Of a stretch of DNA of 11,770 nt, positions 2,042 to 6,539 are shown piece after piece. Under the pieces are notes generated by a model that was given only the letters and a program-made list of their open reading frames with translations, searched no databases and was not told the DNA's origin. How positions within the stretch are numbered: the stretch's first letter is position 1; each line of letters starts with the position of its first letter. The position numbers were made by a program, and so were the translations under genes. Source of the DNA: an uncultured Methanosarcinales archaeon (GTDB lineage: Archaea > Nanobdellota > Nanobdellia > Woesearchaeales > JAGVZT01); assembly GCA_964419615.1 (NCBI GenBank), contig CAYQPU010000026.1, positions 1 through 11,770 on the forward strand. Reading direction: 5' to 3'.

Positions 2042-2055
2042 TGCCCCGTCCGGGA

Positions 2056-2085
2056 CTTTCGATAAAACAACAAATGTTGTGTTTG
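2056..2085 (-). other. tRNA intron 3, 30 nt, T-loop position 59/60
   Basis: BHB: central helix TTCG(54-57)/CGAA, 3-nt bulges AA|C and AG|T, with the T stem as outer helix. The interior contains the hairpin CAAC-ATTT-GTTG. Confidence 0.9.
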
Positions 2086-2106
2086 TTCGAACCCAGGTCG
2101 TCGCCT

Positions 2107-2123
2107 TTCTCCAATCTTAAACT
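2107..2123 (-). other. tRNA intron 2, 17 nt, canonical position 37/38
   Basis: Sequence AGTTTAAGATTGGAGAA. Central helix CTCT(32-35)/GGAG, 3' bulge AA|A38. The intron-side helix is weak, so the motif is a relaxed bulge-helix-loop. Confidence 0.9.
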
Positions 2124-2143
2124 CGAGAGGGCGAAATGATTAG

Positions 2144-2316
2144 TTGCCCGATCTTTTACTAAACTCAACCTAAAATAGTGACTGGTTTGTCACGTGTCGT
2201 GGCTATCTAGTATAAAATATAGGCCACGTCAAGGGACTGCAAGTCCCTTATGTTTTGGTCGACCTTTTTTTAAAAGGTCGTTTTGGTCGAGCTTTTGCGC
2301 TGCGCGGAAAAGATCG
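2144..2316 (-). other. tRNA intron 1, 173 nt, D-loop position 19/20
   Basis: Strict BHB: central helix GTCC(15-17a)/GGGC, bulges GG|C and AA|C. The intron-side helix is GATCTTTT/AAAAGATC (8 bp) and the exon-side helix is TA/TA. Confidence 0.9.
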
Positions 2317-2361
2317 CCGGACTACACCAACGGGGCATACTCCCAAAGAAGCAGATCGTCC

Positions 2362-2391: not shown

Positions 2392-2937
2392 CTATGGACA
2401 ATGGCAGCAACAGTCTCCTTGTACAATAGGTGCTTTCTCATTCCTAAGTCCCAGAACATATTGAGTGTGATACATACTATTCATCAAAAACATTGATAAA
2501 AACTCTTGATTACTCCTACTTTTAAATTCTGATCTAATCAATAATTTGCTTCTACAATCAAGTATGGCAATATCATAAAACCCTGATTTTTTAAAACAAG
2601 ATGCACCCCACCTAAGTTCAGATAGATTAATCTCTGTTTCCAAAAAACCGTCTCCTTCGTGATTTGTAAACCTAATATGTACTTGTTCAACATCTTTTGG
2701 AGGCTTGTGTGAAACATAATCCGTAAAAATCTTATAATCCGCAATTGGATATGGTAATCTCTCATTATCATCTCCCATAATAACATACTGTATACTATTC
2801 CATGCAGTACAAGCAGAAAGAGTTTCTGAACCGTTAAACTCTTCTAGTTTCCTTAGAATCATTGCTATGTTAGAACCCAGAAAGTTGTAAGAATAATTCA
2901 ATGCACTTATTAGATCTAAGTAATCAGAATTATTCAT
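2392..2937 (-). CDS. Hypothetical protein, 181 aa, C-terminal CCCHCP tail
   Basis: Open frame 15 nt downstream of the 2953..3735 gene on the same strand, so probably co-transcribed. No family recognised. Confidence 0.7.
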   Translation of the reverse strand: MNNSDYLDLISALNYSYNFLGSNIAMILRKLEEFNGSETLSACTAWNSIQYVIMGDDNERLPYPIADYKIFTDYVSHKPPKDVEQVHIRFTNHEGDGFLETEINLSELRWGASCFKKSGFYDIAILDCRSKLLIRSEFKSRSNQEFLSMFLMNSMYHTQYVLGLRNEKAPIVQGDCCCHCP

Positions 2938-2952
2938 TTTTCATAAACATTT

Positions 2953-3735
2953 CTATGCTGGTGTTTCTTCTCTTTCATAAATATCAGCAGCTTGCACAAC
3001 TAACTCAACTGATGCAATTGCCATTCCATAATATTGTTCTGCTACAAAAAGCAGTTCTAGTGGTTTAAGTTGGTAGAATTCATCAGCTTGGAAAACTCTT
3101 GGAACTAAAAAAATATCATTTGATGCAGCAACAAACAAACCTTCATTTGCAGCATATTCTAAAAACCTTCTTGCCTCAGTTTTTTCCATGGCTTCTGGAA
3201 TATATTCAGCGAGAAGTAACTTGGTTGTGACCTTCTGATCACCAGGTCTGTTCATTATGTATGTCAGATTATCTGGTGTTAGTGGAAACAAATGGAATTC
3301 ACTACTAGTCATAATGTCATTAGCTTTTATTTCTATGGGTGCTAGAACCTGATCCAAGAACTGTGGAAACATTTCAGTACTTTTTAAAATCAGGAACATA
3401 AGCATATCATAACCTAGTTCTTCGATTTTGTGCTCAGCTAATCCTTCCTTTACACAGGCAGAAATCACAAAATCTGCTTCTTTTAATGCTTGATATCTCT
3501 GTTGAGAATTATCTCTAAATGAAACATCTCCAACAACAGCTTCAATCATATCAGTATCTCTTTGTGTGCCCATTGCAGAAATAAAATCTCCAAAATTACC
3601 TAAGGGGTAAAGTAAAAAATCAAATTGAGTGTAAATTTCGAAAATCTCTTGAATTTGAGGTATTAGTCCTTGATTCTTTTCAGAAAAATGTTCCTTCATT
3701 AAGTCAAATAATCTTGTTTGTAGTTTTGCTGGCAT
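2953..3735 (-). CDS. Hypothetical acidic protein, 260 aa
   Basis: Long open frame with an AAGGAG SD about 9 nt upstream of the ATG. No motif recognised. Confidence 0.75.
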   Translation of the reverse strand: MPAKLQTRLFDLMKEHFSEKNQGLIPQIQEIFEIYTQFDFLLYPLGNFGDFISAMGTQRDTDMIEAVVGDVSFRDNSQQRYQALKEADFVISACVKEGLAEHKIEELGYDMLMFLILKSTEMFPQFLDQVLAPIEIKANDIMTSSEFHLFPLTPDNLTYIMNRPGDQKVTTKLLLAEYIPEAMEKTEARRFLEYAANEGLFVAASNDIFLVPRVFQADEFYQLKPLELLFVAEQYYGMAIASVELVVQAADIYEREETPA

Positions 3736-3883: not shown

Positions 3884-4648
3884 ATGGAGATTTGTGTTGT
3901 GATCCCTTGCTTAAACGAAGAAAAATACATAGGAACAATTCTTAATGATCTAAAAAATCAAACCAAAAAACCGAATAAAGTAATTATTGCAGATGCTGAT
4001 TCAAGTGATAACACAAAAAAAGTAATCACTTCATTCAAAAAAGATCTTAAAATAAAACTAATCAAAGGAGATATGCCGTGGACCAGCAGAAACAGAGGTG
4101 CCAGACTCAGCAGTAAAAACGCATTAGTCTTCTTTTTTGATGCAGATGTTTCTATTGACAAAGATTTTATCGAAAATGCTATCAAGGAAATGCAAAACAA
4201 AAAGTTAGATGGATCCACTTGTCATAACCTTCCGTTTTATAGAAAATGGGAAAAAGGGTACAAAAATAAATTTTTCAGATCTGTTGATTCATTCTACTAT
4301 TTTATGCACAATCTTGGGTTGGACTTTTTAGCATTTTTCAAATTTCCAGTAGCAACAGGCACATGTATAATCTCAACTAGAAAAGCATTTGATAAAGCAG
4401 AAGGTTTTCCAGAACACATGACAGCGTTTGAGGATTCTGAATTTGCTAGAAGAGTTTCAAAAAATGACAAATTTGGCATATTAAAGTCAGTAAAGGTTAA
4501 AGTCTCAACAAGGCGATTTGATAGTAAAGGTAGATTCGTATTCCAGCTTAAACTACTTTTATATGCTGTACTATTCCCATTGTTTAATATTAACAAACAA
4601 ATGCAGTATTTTGACAAAAGGAAAAAAAGAAAGAAAAAATCAAAATAA
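3884..4648 (+). CDS. Glycosyltransferase family 2, 254 aa
   Basis: VVIPCLNEE N-terminus, DADSSDNT, SRNRGA, FFDAD (DxD motif) and FED catalytic region. Lys-rich C-terminal tail. Confidence 0.92.
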   Translation: MEICVVIPCLNEEKYIGTILNDLKNQTKKPNKVIIADADSSDNTKKVITSFKKDLKIKLIKGDMPWTSRNRGARLSSKNALVFFFDADVSIDKDFIENAIKEMQNKKLDGSTCHNLPFYRKWEKGYKNKFFRSVDSFYYFMHNLGLDFLAFFKFPVATGTCIISTRKAFDKAEGFPEHMTAFEDSEFARRVSKNDKFGILKSVKVKVSTRRFDSKGRFVFQLKLLLYAVLFPLFNINKQMQYFDKRKKRKKKSK

Positions 4649-4649
4649 C

Positions 4650-6539
4650 ATGAAATACAAAGGATTCACATTAGACCCTTTTCAAGAAGAATCAATAAAA
4701 TCAATAGATAATAATCATTCTGTTGTTGTATCAGCACCTACTGGTTCTGGAAAAACACTAATTGCAGATTATATTATTGGTAAGTATTTAAATAAAGGAC
4801 TTAGGGTAATCTACACAGCACCAATCAAAGCATTGTCAAATCAAAAGTACAAAGAATTCTGTGCAGACTTTGGTAAAGATAACATCGGTCTGTTAACCGG
4901 AGATATTGTTATTAACTCACAAGCTCCAATCTTAATCATGACCACCGAAATCTACAGAAATATGGCAATATCTAATGATAAGGTCGTGGATAAAGTTAGC
5001 TATGTTGTTTTTGATGAAATTCACTTTATTAATGACTATGAAAGAGGATACGTCTGGGAAGAATCAATAATATTTTCAAAATCACATGTTAGATTTTTGT
5101 GTTTATCTGCAACGATCCCAAACTCAAAACAATTTGCTGACTGGATAATGGAAATAAAAAAGCACCAAGTGGATGTAGTTATCAACACAAAAAGAAATGT
5201 TCCATTATACAGATACTTTTACACAAACGAACTTGGAATCTCAAACCTACAAAAAGTCAAAGAAGTAATGGAAATACCTCGAAGAAGAGCAAAGAAAAAA
5301 CATAGAATAATTTCCCCTTCTCATATTGAACTTGTAAAAGAAATTAAAGACAAGCTACCTTGTTTATTTTTCAACTTCTCTAGGAAGAGATGTCAAGAAT
5401 CAGCACTAGAACTATCTAAATCTAGAGTCTTTCAGACTAATCCTCAAATAAGTAAGCTTGTAAGAGAAAAATTATCCCAGGCAACTCCAGAAATAAGAAG
5501 ACTTAAATCAACAGGTCTATTAAGAAGCGCACTAAACTATGGAATTGCTTTTCATCATGCAGGGCTATTACCAATAATAAAAGAACTGGTTGAAGATCTA
5601 TTCTCAAAAGGACTAATCAAAGTCTTATATACCACAGAAACATTCGCAGTTGGAATAAACATGCCCGCCAAAACAGTCTGCTTTGAATCTTTAAGAAAAT
5701 ATGATGGAAGATCATTTCGACTACTAAATTCAAAAGAATACTTTCAAATAGCTGGAAGAGCAGGTAGGCGAGGAATTGATGACAAAGGTTTTGCAATTGC
5801 AATGATTGACAGGCGTGATTTTAGCTATCCAAAATACAAAAAAATAACAGATAAAGACATGGATCCAATTAAATCACAATTTAGATTGTCAGTTAACACT
5901 GTTCTAAACTTAGTTGATCAACACTCAAAAAAAGATATTGACATAATCCTAGGAATGAACTTTCACAACTACCAAGAATACGGCAAAGAGTACAAAAAAA
6001 GAAGAGGCGTTGCGTATCTAAGATTTCACAACATAAGCAAAAAATTAAAAAGATTAGGTTACATAGAAGAAGACTCACTAACAGAAAAAGGGAAATTTGC
6101 ATCAAAAATATATTCTGATGAAATCCTAACTGGAGAAATCTTTGCAACTGACTTTTTCCGTCAATTCAATGATTATCAACTAATGCTAATTCTTGCTTCA
6201 ATAATTTACGAACCAAGAGAAAAAAACATGTTCTACAAAAAATTCAAATCAGGTGATCTCAGTGATCTGCAAAGAGCAGTTAATACACTCGGGAGCAATA
6301 AATTTAGATCTTTGTACTATCTAACTGCACTTGTAAGTCCATGTTACAATGGCTACTCGTTGTTTGATATCCTTGACAACACTAACCTTTTGGAAGGAGA
6401 TGTAATTAGATTCTTTAGGCAAATTCTTGACAGAATTGGTCAAATACTGAATGCAACCACAGACCAAGATCTAATTGATAAAATGTATAACTGCCAACAT
6501 ATTGTGCACAAATGCATTGAAGATGTAAACGCAATATAG
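4650..6539 (+). CDS. Ski2-like (Mtr4/Ski2/HelY-type) SF2 DExH helicase with DSHCT-like C-terminus, 629 aa
   Basis: Q motif LDPFQ, APTGSGKT (I), YTAPIKALSNQKY (Ia), DEIH (II), SAT (III), FHHAGL, TETFAVGINMPA (V), QIAGRAGRRG (VI) and C-terminal LLEGDVIRFFRQILD. The start was moved to ATG 4650, 1 nt after the GT2 stop, because the track's 4518 extension overlaps the GT2 gene. Confidence 0.93.
   Translation: MKYKGFTLDPFQEESIKSIDNNHSVVVSAPTGSGKTLIADYIIGKYLNKGLRVIYTAPIKALSNQKYKEFCADFGKDNIGLLTGDIVINSQAPILIMTTEIYRNMAISNDKVVDKVSYVVFDEIHFINDYERGYVWEESIIFSKSHVRFLCLSATIPNSKQFADWIMEIKKHQVDVVINTKRNVPLYRYFYTNELGISNLQKVKEVMEIPRRRAKKKHRIISPSHIELVKEIKDKLPCLFFNFSRKRCQESALELSKSRVFQTNPQISKLVREKLSQATPEIRRLKSTGLLRSALNYGIAFHHAGLLPIIKELVEDLFSKGLIKVLYTTETFAVGINMPAKTVCFESLRKYDGRSFRLLNSKEYFQIAGRAGRRGIDDKGFAIAMIDRRDFSYPKYKKITDKDMDPIKSQFRLSVNTVLNLVDQHSKKDIDIILGMNFHNYQEYGKEYKKRRGVAYLRFHNISKKLKRLGYIEEDSLTEKGKFASKIYSDEILTGEIFATDFFRQFNDYQLMLILASIIYEPREKNMFYKKFKSGDLSDLQRAVNTLGSNKFRSLYYLTALVSPCYNGYSLFDILDNTNLLEGDVIRFFRQILDRIGQILNATTDQDLIDKMYNCQHIVHKCIEDVNAI

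What the first reader, a model, noticed from the sequence alone, without database searches (positions are those of the whole stretch)
2144..2316. Very long (173-nt), almost fully paired D-loop intron: a candidate stable circular RNA or relic of a mobile intron
Seen on the transcribed (minus) strand: an 8-bp closing helix, a small GCG-CAG-CGC hairpin, and a long helix AAGCTCGACC/GGTTGAGTTT (2294-2285/2170-2161, two G-U pairs) extended by AAAA/TTTT. A multiloop then carries four hairpins: 2280-2260 (9 bp), 2249-2231 (8 bp), 2228-2198 and 2193-2178. Established: most archaeal tRNA introns are tens of nt, excised BHB introns are circularised, and the known long ones (tRNA-Trp) carry C/D guides. 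No RUGAUGA or CUGA box and no plausible ORF is present here. Inference: this is either a new intron-encoded functional RNA or a remnant of a homing-endonuclease-type intron.
Basis: partly seen in the sequence, partly recalled or inferred. Interest (0 to 1): 0.75.

Follow-up and report, generated by a model that had tools for sequence, protein, structure and literature searches.

The report
Proliferating structured tRNA-intron family member
The 173-base insert is a real intron in the D-loop of a glutamate tRNA gene. It is one of about twenty copies of a folded, gene-less RNA module that has spread through the tRNA genes, and into the RNase P RNA gene, of a tiny DPANN-type archaeon, so it offers a fresh case for asking how archaeal tRNA introns multiply.

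Summary
Window 2316..2144 (minus strand) is a 173-nt intron at position 19/20 of a three-intron tRNA-Glu(CUC) gene (2336..2042). It is bounded by a 3-4-3 bulge-helix-bulge.

The intron is not unique:
- Its core (linker, hairpin hp2, hairpin hp3) occurs 20 times in this 1.48-Mb genome and at least 10 times in a congeneric genome.
- All 19 tRNA-borne copies lie in sense orientation inside tRNA introns: mostly T-loop 59/60, also D-loop 19/20 and anticodon 37/38.
- One further copy expands helix P3 of RNase P RNA.
- Across 30 copies the two core helices are 98.7% paired, and 11 of 13 pairs show compensatory changes.

Copying is recent. Two different tRNAs of the sister species carry 96%-identical introns. 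The interior is missing from this genome's tRNA-Glu(UUC) intron but present in the sister species. The RNase P insertion is specific to this genome.

There are no C/D boxes, no ORF, no Rfam match and no reverse transcriptase.

Best reading: a member of a lineage-specific, self-folding BHB-intron family that spreads between RNA genes. It resembles the intron transposition described in Thermoproteales, but the introns are long and modular. A trans-acting or circular-RNA function is not excluded and could not be tested. First-stage notes on other pieces of this genome had flagged the same family.

The parts
2042..2336 (-). tRNA-Glu(CUC) gene with three introns (four exons: 2336-2317, 2143-2124, 2106-2086, 2055-2042 including the discriminator A)
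   Evidence: The joined exons give a 75-nt tRNA-Glu(ctc) by ARAGORN. An automated BHB splice search recovers the same model. The unspliced gene is missed by ARAGORN and Rfam.
2144..2316 (-). Intron 1: the 173-nt D-loop (19/20) BHB intron, the finding itself. It is a composite of a 'long-form' shell and a 'short-form' core of the family.
   Evidence: Fold z = -7.65. 87% identical to the orthologous intron in congener G001. 75% identical over nt 1-167 to the T-loop intron of another tRNA on contig C13.
2317..2322 (-). 5' half of the BHB: central-helix strand GTCC (2322-2319) and the exon part of the 3-nt bulge (GG, 2318-2317). The third bulge base, C2316, is the first intron base.
   Evidence: Read from the sequence. 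The splice pair was found by the BHB rule.
2143..2149 (-). 3' half of the BHB: central-helix strand GGGC (2149-2146) and bulge AA|C (2145-2143)
   Evidence: Read from the sequence. The same GGGC-AA| ending occurs in G001 Glu(CUC), G001 Glu(UUC) and G000 Glu(UUC). G004 has GGAC-AA|.
2150..2157 (-). P1 closing helix, 3' strand AAAAGATC. It pairs with GATCTTTT at 2315-2308.
   Evidence: 92% paired with 3 covarying pairs in four full-length homologues.
2285..2294 (-). P2 long-range helix, 5' strand AAGCTCGACC. It pairs with GGTTGAGTTT at 2170-2161.
   Evidence: 85% paired in four full-length homologues. The equivalent linker/3'-region pairing was seen by eye in other copies.
2260..2280 (-). hp1: CGACCTTTT-AAA-AAAAGGTCG hairpin, the 5' hallmark of the family
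   Evidence: 100% paired with 3 covarying pairs. Present at the first intron bases of most copies.
2193..2260 (-). Conserved family core: linker GACCAAAAC, hp2 (2249-2231), hp3 (2228-2198) and the ACAC tail
   Evidence: Covariance model R1 scores 81 bits here. 20 strong hits in the own genome and 10 in G001. 30 copies are 98.7% paired, with 11 of 13 pairs showing double changes.
2178..2193 (-). hp4: GTGAC-loop-GTCAC. A hairpin is kept in the homologues but its register shifts.
   Evidence: 70% paired in this register in the homologues.
2107..2123 (-). Intron 2: 17-nt canonical 37/38 intron, without the module
   Evidence: The G001 ortholog has a 12-nt intron here.
2056..2085 (-). Intron 3: 30-nt T-loop 59/60 intron (BHB with TTCG/CGAA central helix and ...GAAAG|T ending), without the module
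   Evidence: The G001 ortholog carries an intron of about 150 nt of the same superfamily at this site.

Best explanation
The 173-nt stretch is a spliceable bulge-helix-bulge intron at position 19/20 of tRNA-Glu(CUC). It is one member of a lineage-specific, multi-copy family of long, self-folding, non-coding introns.

Architecture of each member:
- a closing helix (P1) that stacks on the BHB
- a long-range helix (P2)
- a conserved core of hairpins (hp1, hp2, hp3, sometimes hp4)

How it works (inferred). The pre-tRNA is transcribed with the intron. The intron folds on itself, so that P1 brings the two 3-nt bulges together. The single EndA of the genome cuts at 2317|2316 and 2144|2143, and an RNA ligase joins the exons. 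The intron contributes nothing in cis to the tRNA.

How it spreads (inferred). The family has multiplied by copying between RNA genes, most likely at the DNA level. The likely route is recombination or gene-conversion-like exchange seeded by short shared exon flanks and by the intron's own internal repeats (GACCAAAAC, CTTTT/AAAAG). In this reading the compensatory changes reflect selection to keep each copy compactly folded, and hence spliceable and harmless, plus whatever its propagation requires.

Shown: intron boundaries, fold, family membership, covariation, recent copy, loss and replacement events.
Inferred: actual splicing, the fate of the excised RNA, and the copying mechanism.
For: 1. 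Real intron.
- 3-4-3 BHB at the junction, and the spliced product is tRNA-Glu(ctc).
- EndA is present: 219 aa, N-terminal plus catalytic domain, with the N. equitans alpha subunit as closest solved relative.

2. Family.
- Intron nt 32-124 match 8 or more other loci at 78-90% identity. nt 1-167 match a T-loop intron on C13 at 75%.
- Iterated nhmmer finds 21 full and 3 partial copies.
- Model R1 gives 20 hits of 61-86 bits in the own genome and 10 in congener G001. It gives only single weak hits in other genera of the family, and nothing credible in the 53 other families of the order that were searched.

3. Location.
- All 19 tRNA-borne copies are in the sense orientation, and the module starts at the first or second intron base. 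Sites are T-loop 59/60, D-loop 19/20 and anticodon 37/38.

4. Structure under selection.
- 20 own copies: 99% paired, 11 of 13 pairs with double changes, 0 of 500 shuffles as good.
- 30 copies from two species: 98.7% paired, 65 compensated cells.
- Full-length architecture: P1 92%, P2 85%, hp1, hp2 and hp3 100% paired.

5. Conserved above background.
- The ortholog in G001 is 87% identical.
- The neighbouring genes are 65-79% identical at the DNA level, and the intergenic flanks do not align.

6. Recent turnover and copying.
- G001 tRNA-Lys(CUU) and tRNA-Leu T-loop introns are 96% identical to each other, whereas G000 tRNA-Lys carries another subtype.
- G000 tRNA-Glu(UUC) has only the 32-nt closing helix, where G001 has a 164-nt module-bearing intron.
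- The T-loop intron of this same gene is 30 nt here and about 150 nt in G001.
- A module expands RNase P P3 only in G000. P3 is short in G001, G002, G003, G004 and G007.

7. Pointers to a DNA-level route.
- No RVT_1 reverse transcriptase was found in the 99%-complete genome.
- The intron is a composite with a duplicated TCGACCAAAAC junction.

8. Precedent.
- Cross-isotype intron families, read as 'intron transposition', are described for Thermoproteales (Fujishima 2010, as summarised in PMC4090602, and quantified in bioRxiv 10.64898/2026.10.13.758758).
Against: - Splicing, and the absence of a trans function, are not shown: no RNA data could be obtained.
- The last six intron bases differ by site (GGGC-AA at the D-loop, TGAA-AG at the T-loop). 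A simple transfer of a whole intron between positions therefore needs extra adaptation.
- The exon flanks shared by different tRNAs are very short (about 8 and 3 nt), which is poor substrate for classical homologous recombination.
- Sequence conservation of partly unpaired segments (the AAGAU side of the hp3 loop, the ACAC tail) goes beyond what a mere 'fold compactly' constraint predicts. It could mean recognition by a protein, or a function.
- 87% identity between species could also reflect a functional RNA.
Confidence: 0.6

Rival explanations
1. Intron-borne functional RNA. The conserved P2/hp2/hp3 core is released from about 20 highly expressed pre-tRNAs, probably as a circle made by the tRNA ligase. 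It then acts in trans, for example as a protein-binding or decoy RNA. The tRNA introns serve as its expression cassettes, as with the box C/D guide in the euryarchaeal tRNA-Trp intron.
For: - Strong covariation in 30 copies.
- The ortholog is 87% identical while neighbouring genes are 65-79% identical.
- Semi-conserved unpaired bases in the hp3 loop and the tail.
- Strict sense orientation in all 19 tRNA copies.
- The module is also tolerated in a stable RNA, RNase P P3.
Against: - No known motif: no C/D or H/ACA boxes and no Rfam family.
- The copies diverge to about 75% and come in several architectures, with nested extra hairpins.
- Individual copies are lost or replaced between sister species.
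- The family is essentially confined to one genus, which is unusual for a core cellular RNA.
- No variable guide-like segment was found.
Confidence: 0.25
2. DNA-level hairpin transposon (MITE/PATE- or REP-like). It would be mobilised in trans by the genome's IS200/IS605 Y1 transposase or by another nuclease. It would survive only where insertion is harmless, that is inside pre-existing tRNA introns and a variable RNase P helix.
For: - A Y1_Tnp gene lies on contig C57, with a fragment at the end of contig C2.
- The element is built of conserved hairpins with compensatory changes, as REP and PATE elements are.
- There is a genome-specific insertion into RNase P P3, which is not a BHB site.
- An earlier agent reported another PATE-like hairpin repeat in this genome (not checked here).
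Against: - 19 of 19 tRNA copies are in the sense orientation, and each starts at the splice site rather than at random points within older introns.
- nhmmer and the covariance model found no match to the module on the IS contig. Its hairpins differ from those of the module.
- No intergenic copies in this genome.
- No target-site duplication is visible.
Confidence: 0.1
3. Relic of a homing-endonuclease intron, or an intron mobilised by a free-standing homing endonuclease ('collaborative homing') that cuts intron-less tRNA genes.
For: - A 200-aa LAGLIDADG_3 ORF abuts a three-intron tRNA-Leu gene on contig C7.
- Nearly all tRNA genes carry an intron at the same T-loop site. This is the pattern homing would produce if the intact T-loop were the target.
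Against: - No ORF remnant in this intron or in any copy (copies are 85-190 nt).
- The LAGLIDADG gene is single-copy and has no close homologue in G001, which has the intron family too.
Confidence: 0.03
4. A chance or purely local structure with no relatives: a unique long spacer that only brings the splice sites together.
For: The interior can be reduced to the closing helix alone without loss of the tRNA gene, as in G000 tRNA-Glu(UUC).
Against: 20 homologous copies in the genome, covariation, and conservation in the sister species.
Confidence: 0.02

Closest known systems
Transposed tRNA-intron families of Thermoproteales (Sugahara 2008; Fujishima et al. 2010, Mol Biol Evol 27:2233, as summarised in PMC4090602 and re-measured in bioRxiv 10.64898/2026.10.13.758758)
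   Same: [quoted passage not shown]
- Closely related sequences occur in tRNAs of different isotypes within one genome.
- Multi-intron tRNA genes.
- The mechanism of spread is unknown.
   Different: - Different lineage: a DPANN/Woesearchaeota-type small genome, not Crenarchaeota.
- The introns are much longer (85-190 nt). They are built from a conserved multi-hairpin core with clear covariation and nested sub-modules.
- The 59/60 site is occupied in about 80% of the tRNA genes.
- One copy sits in RNase P RNA.
Box C/D guide intron of euryarchaeal tRNA-Trp (Haloferax and others; Singh et al. 2004, cited in PMC4090602)
   Same: A long (about 100 nt) structured tRNA intron that is excised at a BHB and has a role after excision.
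   Different: - No C or D boxes and no K-turn signature.
- No Rfam snoRNA hit.
- Multi-copy and at several positions, rather than one conserved intron at 37/38.
Archaeal rRNA/tRNA BHB introns carrying LAGLIDADG homing endonuclease genes
   Same: BHB-bounded, mobile, excised as stable circles.
   Different: No ORF or ORF remnant in any copy. Far too short to have held one.
PATEs/MITEs of IS200/IS605 and REP/BIME elements
   Same: Short, protein-free, hairpin-rich repeats with compensatory changes in their stems. A Y1 transposase is present in the genome.
   Different: - Strict sense orientation inside RNA genes.
- Ends coincide with the splice sites.
- No similarity to the IS ends.
- No intergenic copies.
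Heavily interrupted tRNA genes of DPANN archaea with loop-bearing EndA (Kaneta et al. 2018, PMC5829648; Fujishima 2011, PMC3239211)
   Same: - A small DPANN genome in which standard tools miss most tRNAs.
- A single short EndA related to the Nanoarchaeum catalytic subunit.
- Non-canonical and multiple introns.
   Different: The passages of those papers that I read concern EndA types and counts of disrupted genes. I saw no description there of a conserved structured intron module or of its copying.

Membership tests
Archaeal BHB (EndA-spliced) tRNA intron | Two 3-nt bulges separated by a 4-bp helix at the exon-intron junctions, with cleavage after the second bulge base | tested here: met
   GTCC/GGGC helix with bulges GG|C and AA|C. 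Recovered by the rule-based scan. The outer exon-exon helix is weak (2 bp).
Archaeal BHB (EndA-spliced) tRNA intron | Removal restores a canonical cloverleaf tRNA | tested here: met
   The joined exons give a 75-nt tRNA-Glu(ctc) by ARAGORN.
Archaeal BHB (EndA-spliced) tRNA intron | The host encodes a splicing endonuclease | tested here: met
   One PF01974 + PF02778 protein of 219 aa. Best PDB match is the N. equitans EndA alpha subunit, 3IEY_A, E = 3e-34.
Archaeal BHB (EndA-spliced) tRNA intron | Spliced and circular products observed in RNA | not testable with these tools
Transposed / cross-isotype tRNA intron family (Thermoproteales type) | Introns of at least 80% identity in tRNAs of different types within one genome | tested here: met
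   - Core 90% identical to the T-loop intron on contig C8, and 83-84% to four others.
- G001 Lys and Leu introns are 96% identical.
Transposed / cross-isotype tRNA intron family (Thermoproteales type) | Related introns at different positions of the tRNA | tested here: met
   Copies at 19/20, 37/38 and 59/60.
Box C/D sRNA-bearing intron | C box RUGAUGA and D box CUGA flanking a guide | tested here: not met
   Neither motif occurs in the intron. No credible Rfam hit at E up to 10: three sub-threshold matches on the opposite strand.
Homing-endonuclease intron | An intron-encoded LAGLIDADG (or other) endonuclease ORF, or its remnant | tested here: not met
   - The six-frame translation shows only short or meaningless frames.
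- All copies are 190 nt or shorter.
- The only LAGLIDADG gene found is free-standing on contig C7.
IS200/IS605-derived PATE/MITE | Ends or hairpins derived from a resident IS, and insertion in either orientation in non-coding DNA | tested here: not met
   - nhmmer and the CM found no match to the module on the TnpA contig. Its hairpins differ.
- 19 of 19 copies are in the sense orientation, and none is intergenic.
Known Rfam RNA family | Score at or above a family's gathering threshold | tested here: not met
   No hit for the intron or for other copies.

The most novel reading that the evidence does not exclude
The module is a new class of RNA element that uses the tRNA-splicing machinery as its life cycle. 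It would be excised and circularised from about 20 pre-tRNAs. It would then either serve the cell as an abundant structured RNA with a protein partner, or re-insert at BHB-like sites of other RNAs and be fixed in DNA. The second case would be an RNA-level mobile BHB intron caught while spreading, including into RNase P RNA.
Probability: 0.2. Interest if true: 0.85.

Novelty: new variant of a known kind. Interest (0 to 1): 0.62.

Why it matters
How archaeal tRNA introns arise and multiply is an old open question. The Thermoproteales 'intron transposition' has no known mechanism. [quoted passage not shown]

This genus offers an unusually readable case:
- The introns are long, structured and easy to align.
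- There are about 20 copies per 1.5-Mb genome.
- Events are recent enough to see: 96%-identical introns in different tRNAs, replacement of orthologous introns, an interior deletion, and an insertion into RNase P RNA.
- The genome has one EndA and no detected reverse transcriptase.

Comparing more genomes of the genus, or sequencing its RNA, could show directly whether the copying is DNA- or RNA-mediated, and whether the excised module has a life of its own.

There is also a practical point. Standard tRNA finders see only about 10 of roughly 40 or more tRNA genes here.

Tried and rejected
- ARAGORN and Rfam at gathering thresholds on the window found nothing, because of the introns. Rfam at E up to 10 on the locus, and on 14 related loci, found only noise, RNase P and intact tRNAs.
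- My first genome contigs pattern scan was too loose.
- A stricter pattern found nothing in viral contigs or in metagenome contigs. A looser metagenome scan gave 11 loci whose best model hits are bacterial GC-rich terminators, so they are false positives.
- The organism could not be named with my own tools. The protein-atlas search was uninformative. The look-up of encoding contigs gave only a JGI sample number. 'DPANN/Woesearchaeota' rests on earlier agents' notes, on the Nanoarchaeum-like EndA and on the many small-genome families in the order.
- I looked by eye for a K-turn or H/ACA reading of hp3 and found no consistent GA/AG or ACA signature, so I dropped it.
- I considered hp1 as an internal promoter, because it resembles the RNase P promoter motif ACCAAAACCTTTTTAAAA. 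That motif is not a general promoter of this genome: it occurs twice. I keep it only as a note.
- I tested whether the RNase P insertion is itself a BHB intron. No convincing BHB was found, and excision at the one BHB-like pairing I saw would remove the conserved GAGGAAAG, so I read it as an expansion of P3.
- My automated three-intron census is only approximate. About a quarter of the genes got no model or a wrong one under the strict BHB rule.

Full report
WHAT IS THERE

On the minus strand, window 2336..2042 is a tRNA gene split by three introns:
- exon 1, 2336-2317
- intron 1, 2316-2144 (173 nt)
- exon 2, 2143-2124
- intron 2, 2123-2107 (17 nt, canonical 37/38)
- exon 3, 2106-2086
- intron 3, 2085-2056 (30 nt, T-loop 59/60)
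- exon 4, 2055-2042

ARAGORN and Rfam see nothing in the unspliced window. The joined exons form a 75-nt tRNA-Glu(ctc) cloverleaf. A rule-based splice search recovered the same three introns on its own.

The junction of intron 1 is a 3-4-3 bulge-helix-bulge. Exon GTCC (2322-2319) pairs with intron GGGC (2149-2146).

THE FOLD

The intron folds to -62.3 kcal/mol, against -32.8 +/- 3.9 for shuffled sequences (z = -7.65).
- closing helix P1
- the small GCG/CGC hairpin
- the long-range helix P2, AAGCTCGACC / GGTTGAGTTT (2294-2285 / 2170-2161)
- four hairpins: hp1 2280-2260, hp2 2249-2231, hp3 2228-2198, hp4 2193-2178

64% of the bases are paired. There are no RUGAUGA or CUGA boxes and no plausible ORF. 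Rfam gives nothing even at E up to 10.

IT IS NOT UNIQUE

A search of the window's own genome (1.48 Mb, 64 contigs, 99% complete) with the intron found many homologues:
- Its nt 32-124 recur at eight or more other loci at 78-90% identity.
- Its nt 1-167 recur at 75% on contig C13.
- Its first 36 nt recur at several further loci.

Iterated nhmmer gave 21 full and 3 partial copies. I aligned 20 cores (linker GACCAAAAC, hp2, hp3, ACAC tail). The two helices are 99% paired, 11 of 13 pairs show changes on both sides, no shuffle out of 500 does as well, and slid controls pair at 28-46%.

A covariance model built from that alignment (R1) gave these results:
- 20 hits of 61-86 bits in the own genome
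- 10 hits in the congeneric genome G001
- only single weak hits in three or four other genera of the same family (one of them, G006, is an unpublished genome, and nothing else here rests on it)
- nothing credible in the 53 other families of the order that were sampled

With the G001 copies added, 30 sequences are 98.7% paired, with 65 compensated cells. Viral and metagenome collections held no true match.

WHERE THE COPIES SIT

Every copy I inspected lies in an RNA gene:
- Fourteen are in T-loop introns. These run GGTTCAAA|...TGAAAG|TCC, a clean BHB with a TTCA/TGAA central helix.
- Three are in D-loop 19/20 introns: this one and two in arginine tRNAs.
- One is in a 37/38 intron of tRNA-Thr.
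- One is in another tRNA intron on contig C12.
- One is in RNase P RNA.

All 19 tRNA copies are in the sense orientation, and the family's 5' hallmark (C-G/A-A-Y-C-TTTT) begins at the first or second intron base.

There are two architectures. The short form has hp1, the linker, hp2, hp3, a variable 3' part that pairs back to the linker, and the closure. In the long form the hp1 loop carries an extra GC hairpin, and an hp4 is present. Some copies carry a further nested two-hairpin insert.

The finding's intron is a composite: a long-form shell that also contains a short-form hp1, with TCGACCAAAAC duplicated at the join. The same composite occurs in the T-loop of a tRNA on C13 (tRNA-Gln according to an earlier first-stage note; I did not confirm the isotype) and in both tRNA-Glu genes of G001. 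On these four sequences P1 is 92% paired, P2 85%, hp1, hp2 and hp3 100%, and hp4 70%.

GENOME CONTEXT

Standard tools find about 10 tRNAs in this genome. A scan anchored on the T-arm finds about 39 genes, of which 31 have an insertion of 14-191 nt at 59/60. That census is approximate.

The tRNA covariance model recovers 10 genes in G001, 14 in G002, 14 in G003, 21 in G004 and 32 in G007. Interruption is therefore family-wide and most extreme in this genus.

The genome has:
- one EndA of 219 aa, with an N-terminal and a catalytic domain, whose closest solved relative is the Nanoarchaeum equitans catalytic subunit
- no RVT_1 reverse transcriptase
- an IS200/IS605 TnpA on a 2.6-kb contig, with hairpins unlike those of the module
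- one free-standing LAGLIDADG gene abutting a tRNA-Leu, with no close homologue in G001

This fits the report that DPANN lineages with loop-bearing short EndAs have many disrupted and unpredicted tRNA genes (PMC5829648).

ORTHOLOGS AND DYNAMICS

The G001 tRNA-Glu(CUC) lies in partly conserved synteny. It carries a 172-nt D-loop intron that is 87% identical, with compensatory changes in hp2. The neighbouring glycosyltransferase and helicase genes are only 65% and 79% identical at the DNA level, and the intergenic flanks do not align. The intron sequence is therefore not drifting neutrally.

The family is nevertheless fluid:
- G001 tRNA-Glu(UUC) has a 164-nt module-bearing D-loop intron, whereas G000 tRNA-Glu(UUC) has 32 nt, which is the closing helix alone.
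- A genus further away (G004) has 66-67-nt D-loop introns with only hp1, the linker and hp2. G003 and G007 have no D-loop intron in tRNA-Glu.
- The T-loop intron of this very gene is 30 nt here and about 150 nt in G001.
- In G001 the T-loop introns of tRNA-Lys(CUU) and tRNA-Leu are 96% identical to each other and 92-93% identical to G000's tRNA-Leu intron. G000's tRNA-Lys carries a different subtype. This is a recent cross-isotype replacement.
- The RNase P P3 helix is a short hairpin in G001, G002, G003, G004 and G007, but holds a module of about 135 nt in G000. No convincing BHB encloses it.

INTERPRETATION

Shown:
- This is a real BHB intron.
- It belongs to a genus-level, multi-copy family of self-folding introns.
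- The family's helices are maintained by compensatory change.
- Members have been copied, replaced, truncated and inserted into a non-tRNA RNA gene since the two species split.

Inferred:
- The intron is excised by EndA.
- P1 exists to present the BHB.
- The rest of the fold keeps a long insert compact and harmless, or serves the intron's propagation.
- Copying is a DNA-level recombination or gene-conversion-like process. The arguments are the absence of a reverse transcriptase, the composite junctions at internal repeats, and the 3' microhomology at the RNase P site (GTTTGTGAGGAAAGTCC there, GTTCTGTGAAAGTCC at T-loop intron ends).

Open problems for this reading:
- The splice-site-proximal six bases differ by position.
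- The shared exon flanks are very short.

A trans-acting or circular RNA function is the main rival at about 0.25. It would explain the sequence conservation and the strict orientation, and only RNA data can settle it. A hairpin MITE mobilised by the Y1 transposase, and a homing-endonuclease connection, are less likely for the reasons given under the rival explanations.

COMPARISON AND NOVELTY

The closest known phenomenon is the intron transposition inferred in Thermoproteales (Fujishima 2010, via PMC4090602; 28% of Thermoproteales introns fall in cross-isotype families of at least 80% identity). This case is the same kind of thing, in a different lineage. It differs in having long modular introns with a conserved and covarying core, near-saturation of the 59/60 site, and spill-over into RNase P RNA.

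In the papers I could search I found no description of such a module in DPANN archaea. I rate it a new variant of a known kind.

First-stage notes on other pieces of this genome had independently flagged the shared intron module. I verified that here with my own searches.

Noticed in passing
G000 contig C3 about 47770-47905 (L008:1457-1592, minus strand), outside the window: The RNase P RNA gene (RF00373, 101 bits) has its P3 hairpin expanded by a copy of the intron module of about 135 nt, just 5' of the conserved GAGGAAAGTCC. RNase P of G001, G002, G003, G004 and G007 has a short P3.
   Followed up: yes
G000 contig C7 13343-13942 (L035:1716-2318, minus strand): A free-standing 200-aa LAGLIDADG_3 ORF whose end overlaps the first bases of a three-intron tRNA-Leu gene. 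It is single-copy and has no close homologue in G001 or in 59 other relatives (best 26-30% identity).
   Followed up: partly
G000 contig C57 970-1407 (L166) and the end of contig C2 (79974-80084): An IS200/IS605 Y1 transposase with an adjacent large ORF that runs off the contig. I guess this ORF is TnpB but did not check it. A second transposase fragment lies at the end of contig C2. The hairpins of this element do not resemble the intron module.
   Followed up: partly
window 2056-2085 (minus strand) compared with L155 (G001:C43): The T-loop intron of the same tRNA-Glu(CUC) is 30 nt here. The sister species has an intron of about 150 nt of the same superfamily at this site. The 37/38 intron also differs (17 nt here, 12 nt there).
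   Followed up: partly
window 2392-2937 and 2953-3735 (minus strand): Two ORFs (181 and 260 aa) without Pfam hits lie between the tRNA-Glu gene and the glycosyltransferase gene. In G001 the tRNA follows the glycosyltransferase gene after about 220 nt, so these ORFs are an insertion here or a deletion there.
   Followed up: no
window 4518-6539 (plus strand): A 673-aa Ski2/Mtr4-like helicase with a C-terminal DSHCT (NUC185) domain. Its N-terminal part is 89% identical in protein sequence to that of G001.
   Followed up: no
upstream of RNase P RNA in G000, G001, G003 and G004: A conserved promoter-like motif, ACCAAAACCTTTTTAAAA, resembles the module's linker plus hp1 (GACCAAAAC-GACCTTTTAA.AAAA). 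The motif occurs only twice in the genome, so it is not a general promoter.
   Followed up: partly
G000 contig C5 56835-57092: Two adjacent tRNA genes both read with anticodon CCA. The first is intron-less and is found by standard tools. The second has a 111-nt module-bearing T-loop intron.
   Followed up: no
G000 C10:~1700-1780 and C20:~19500-19560; G001 L173 and L174: A further nested two-hairpin sub-module (ACAC-hairpin-GTGYCC-hairpin-GG) is inserted between hp1 and the linker in some copies. It is shared between species.
   Followed up: no
L027 (G002:C48:1-300): In another genus the module lies in front of a tRNA whose first 8 bases (GCCGGGAT) are duplicated about 160 nt upstream, next to a promoter-like box. 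It could be a long leader or an intron very near the 5' end.
   Followed up: no
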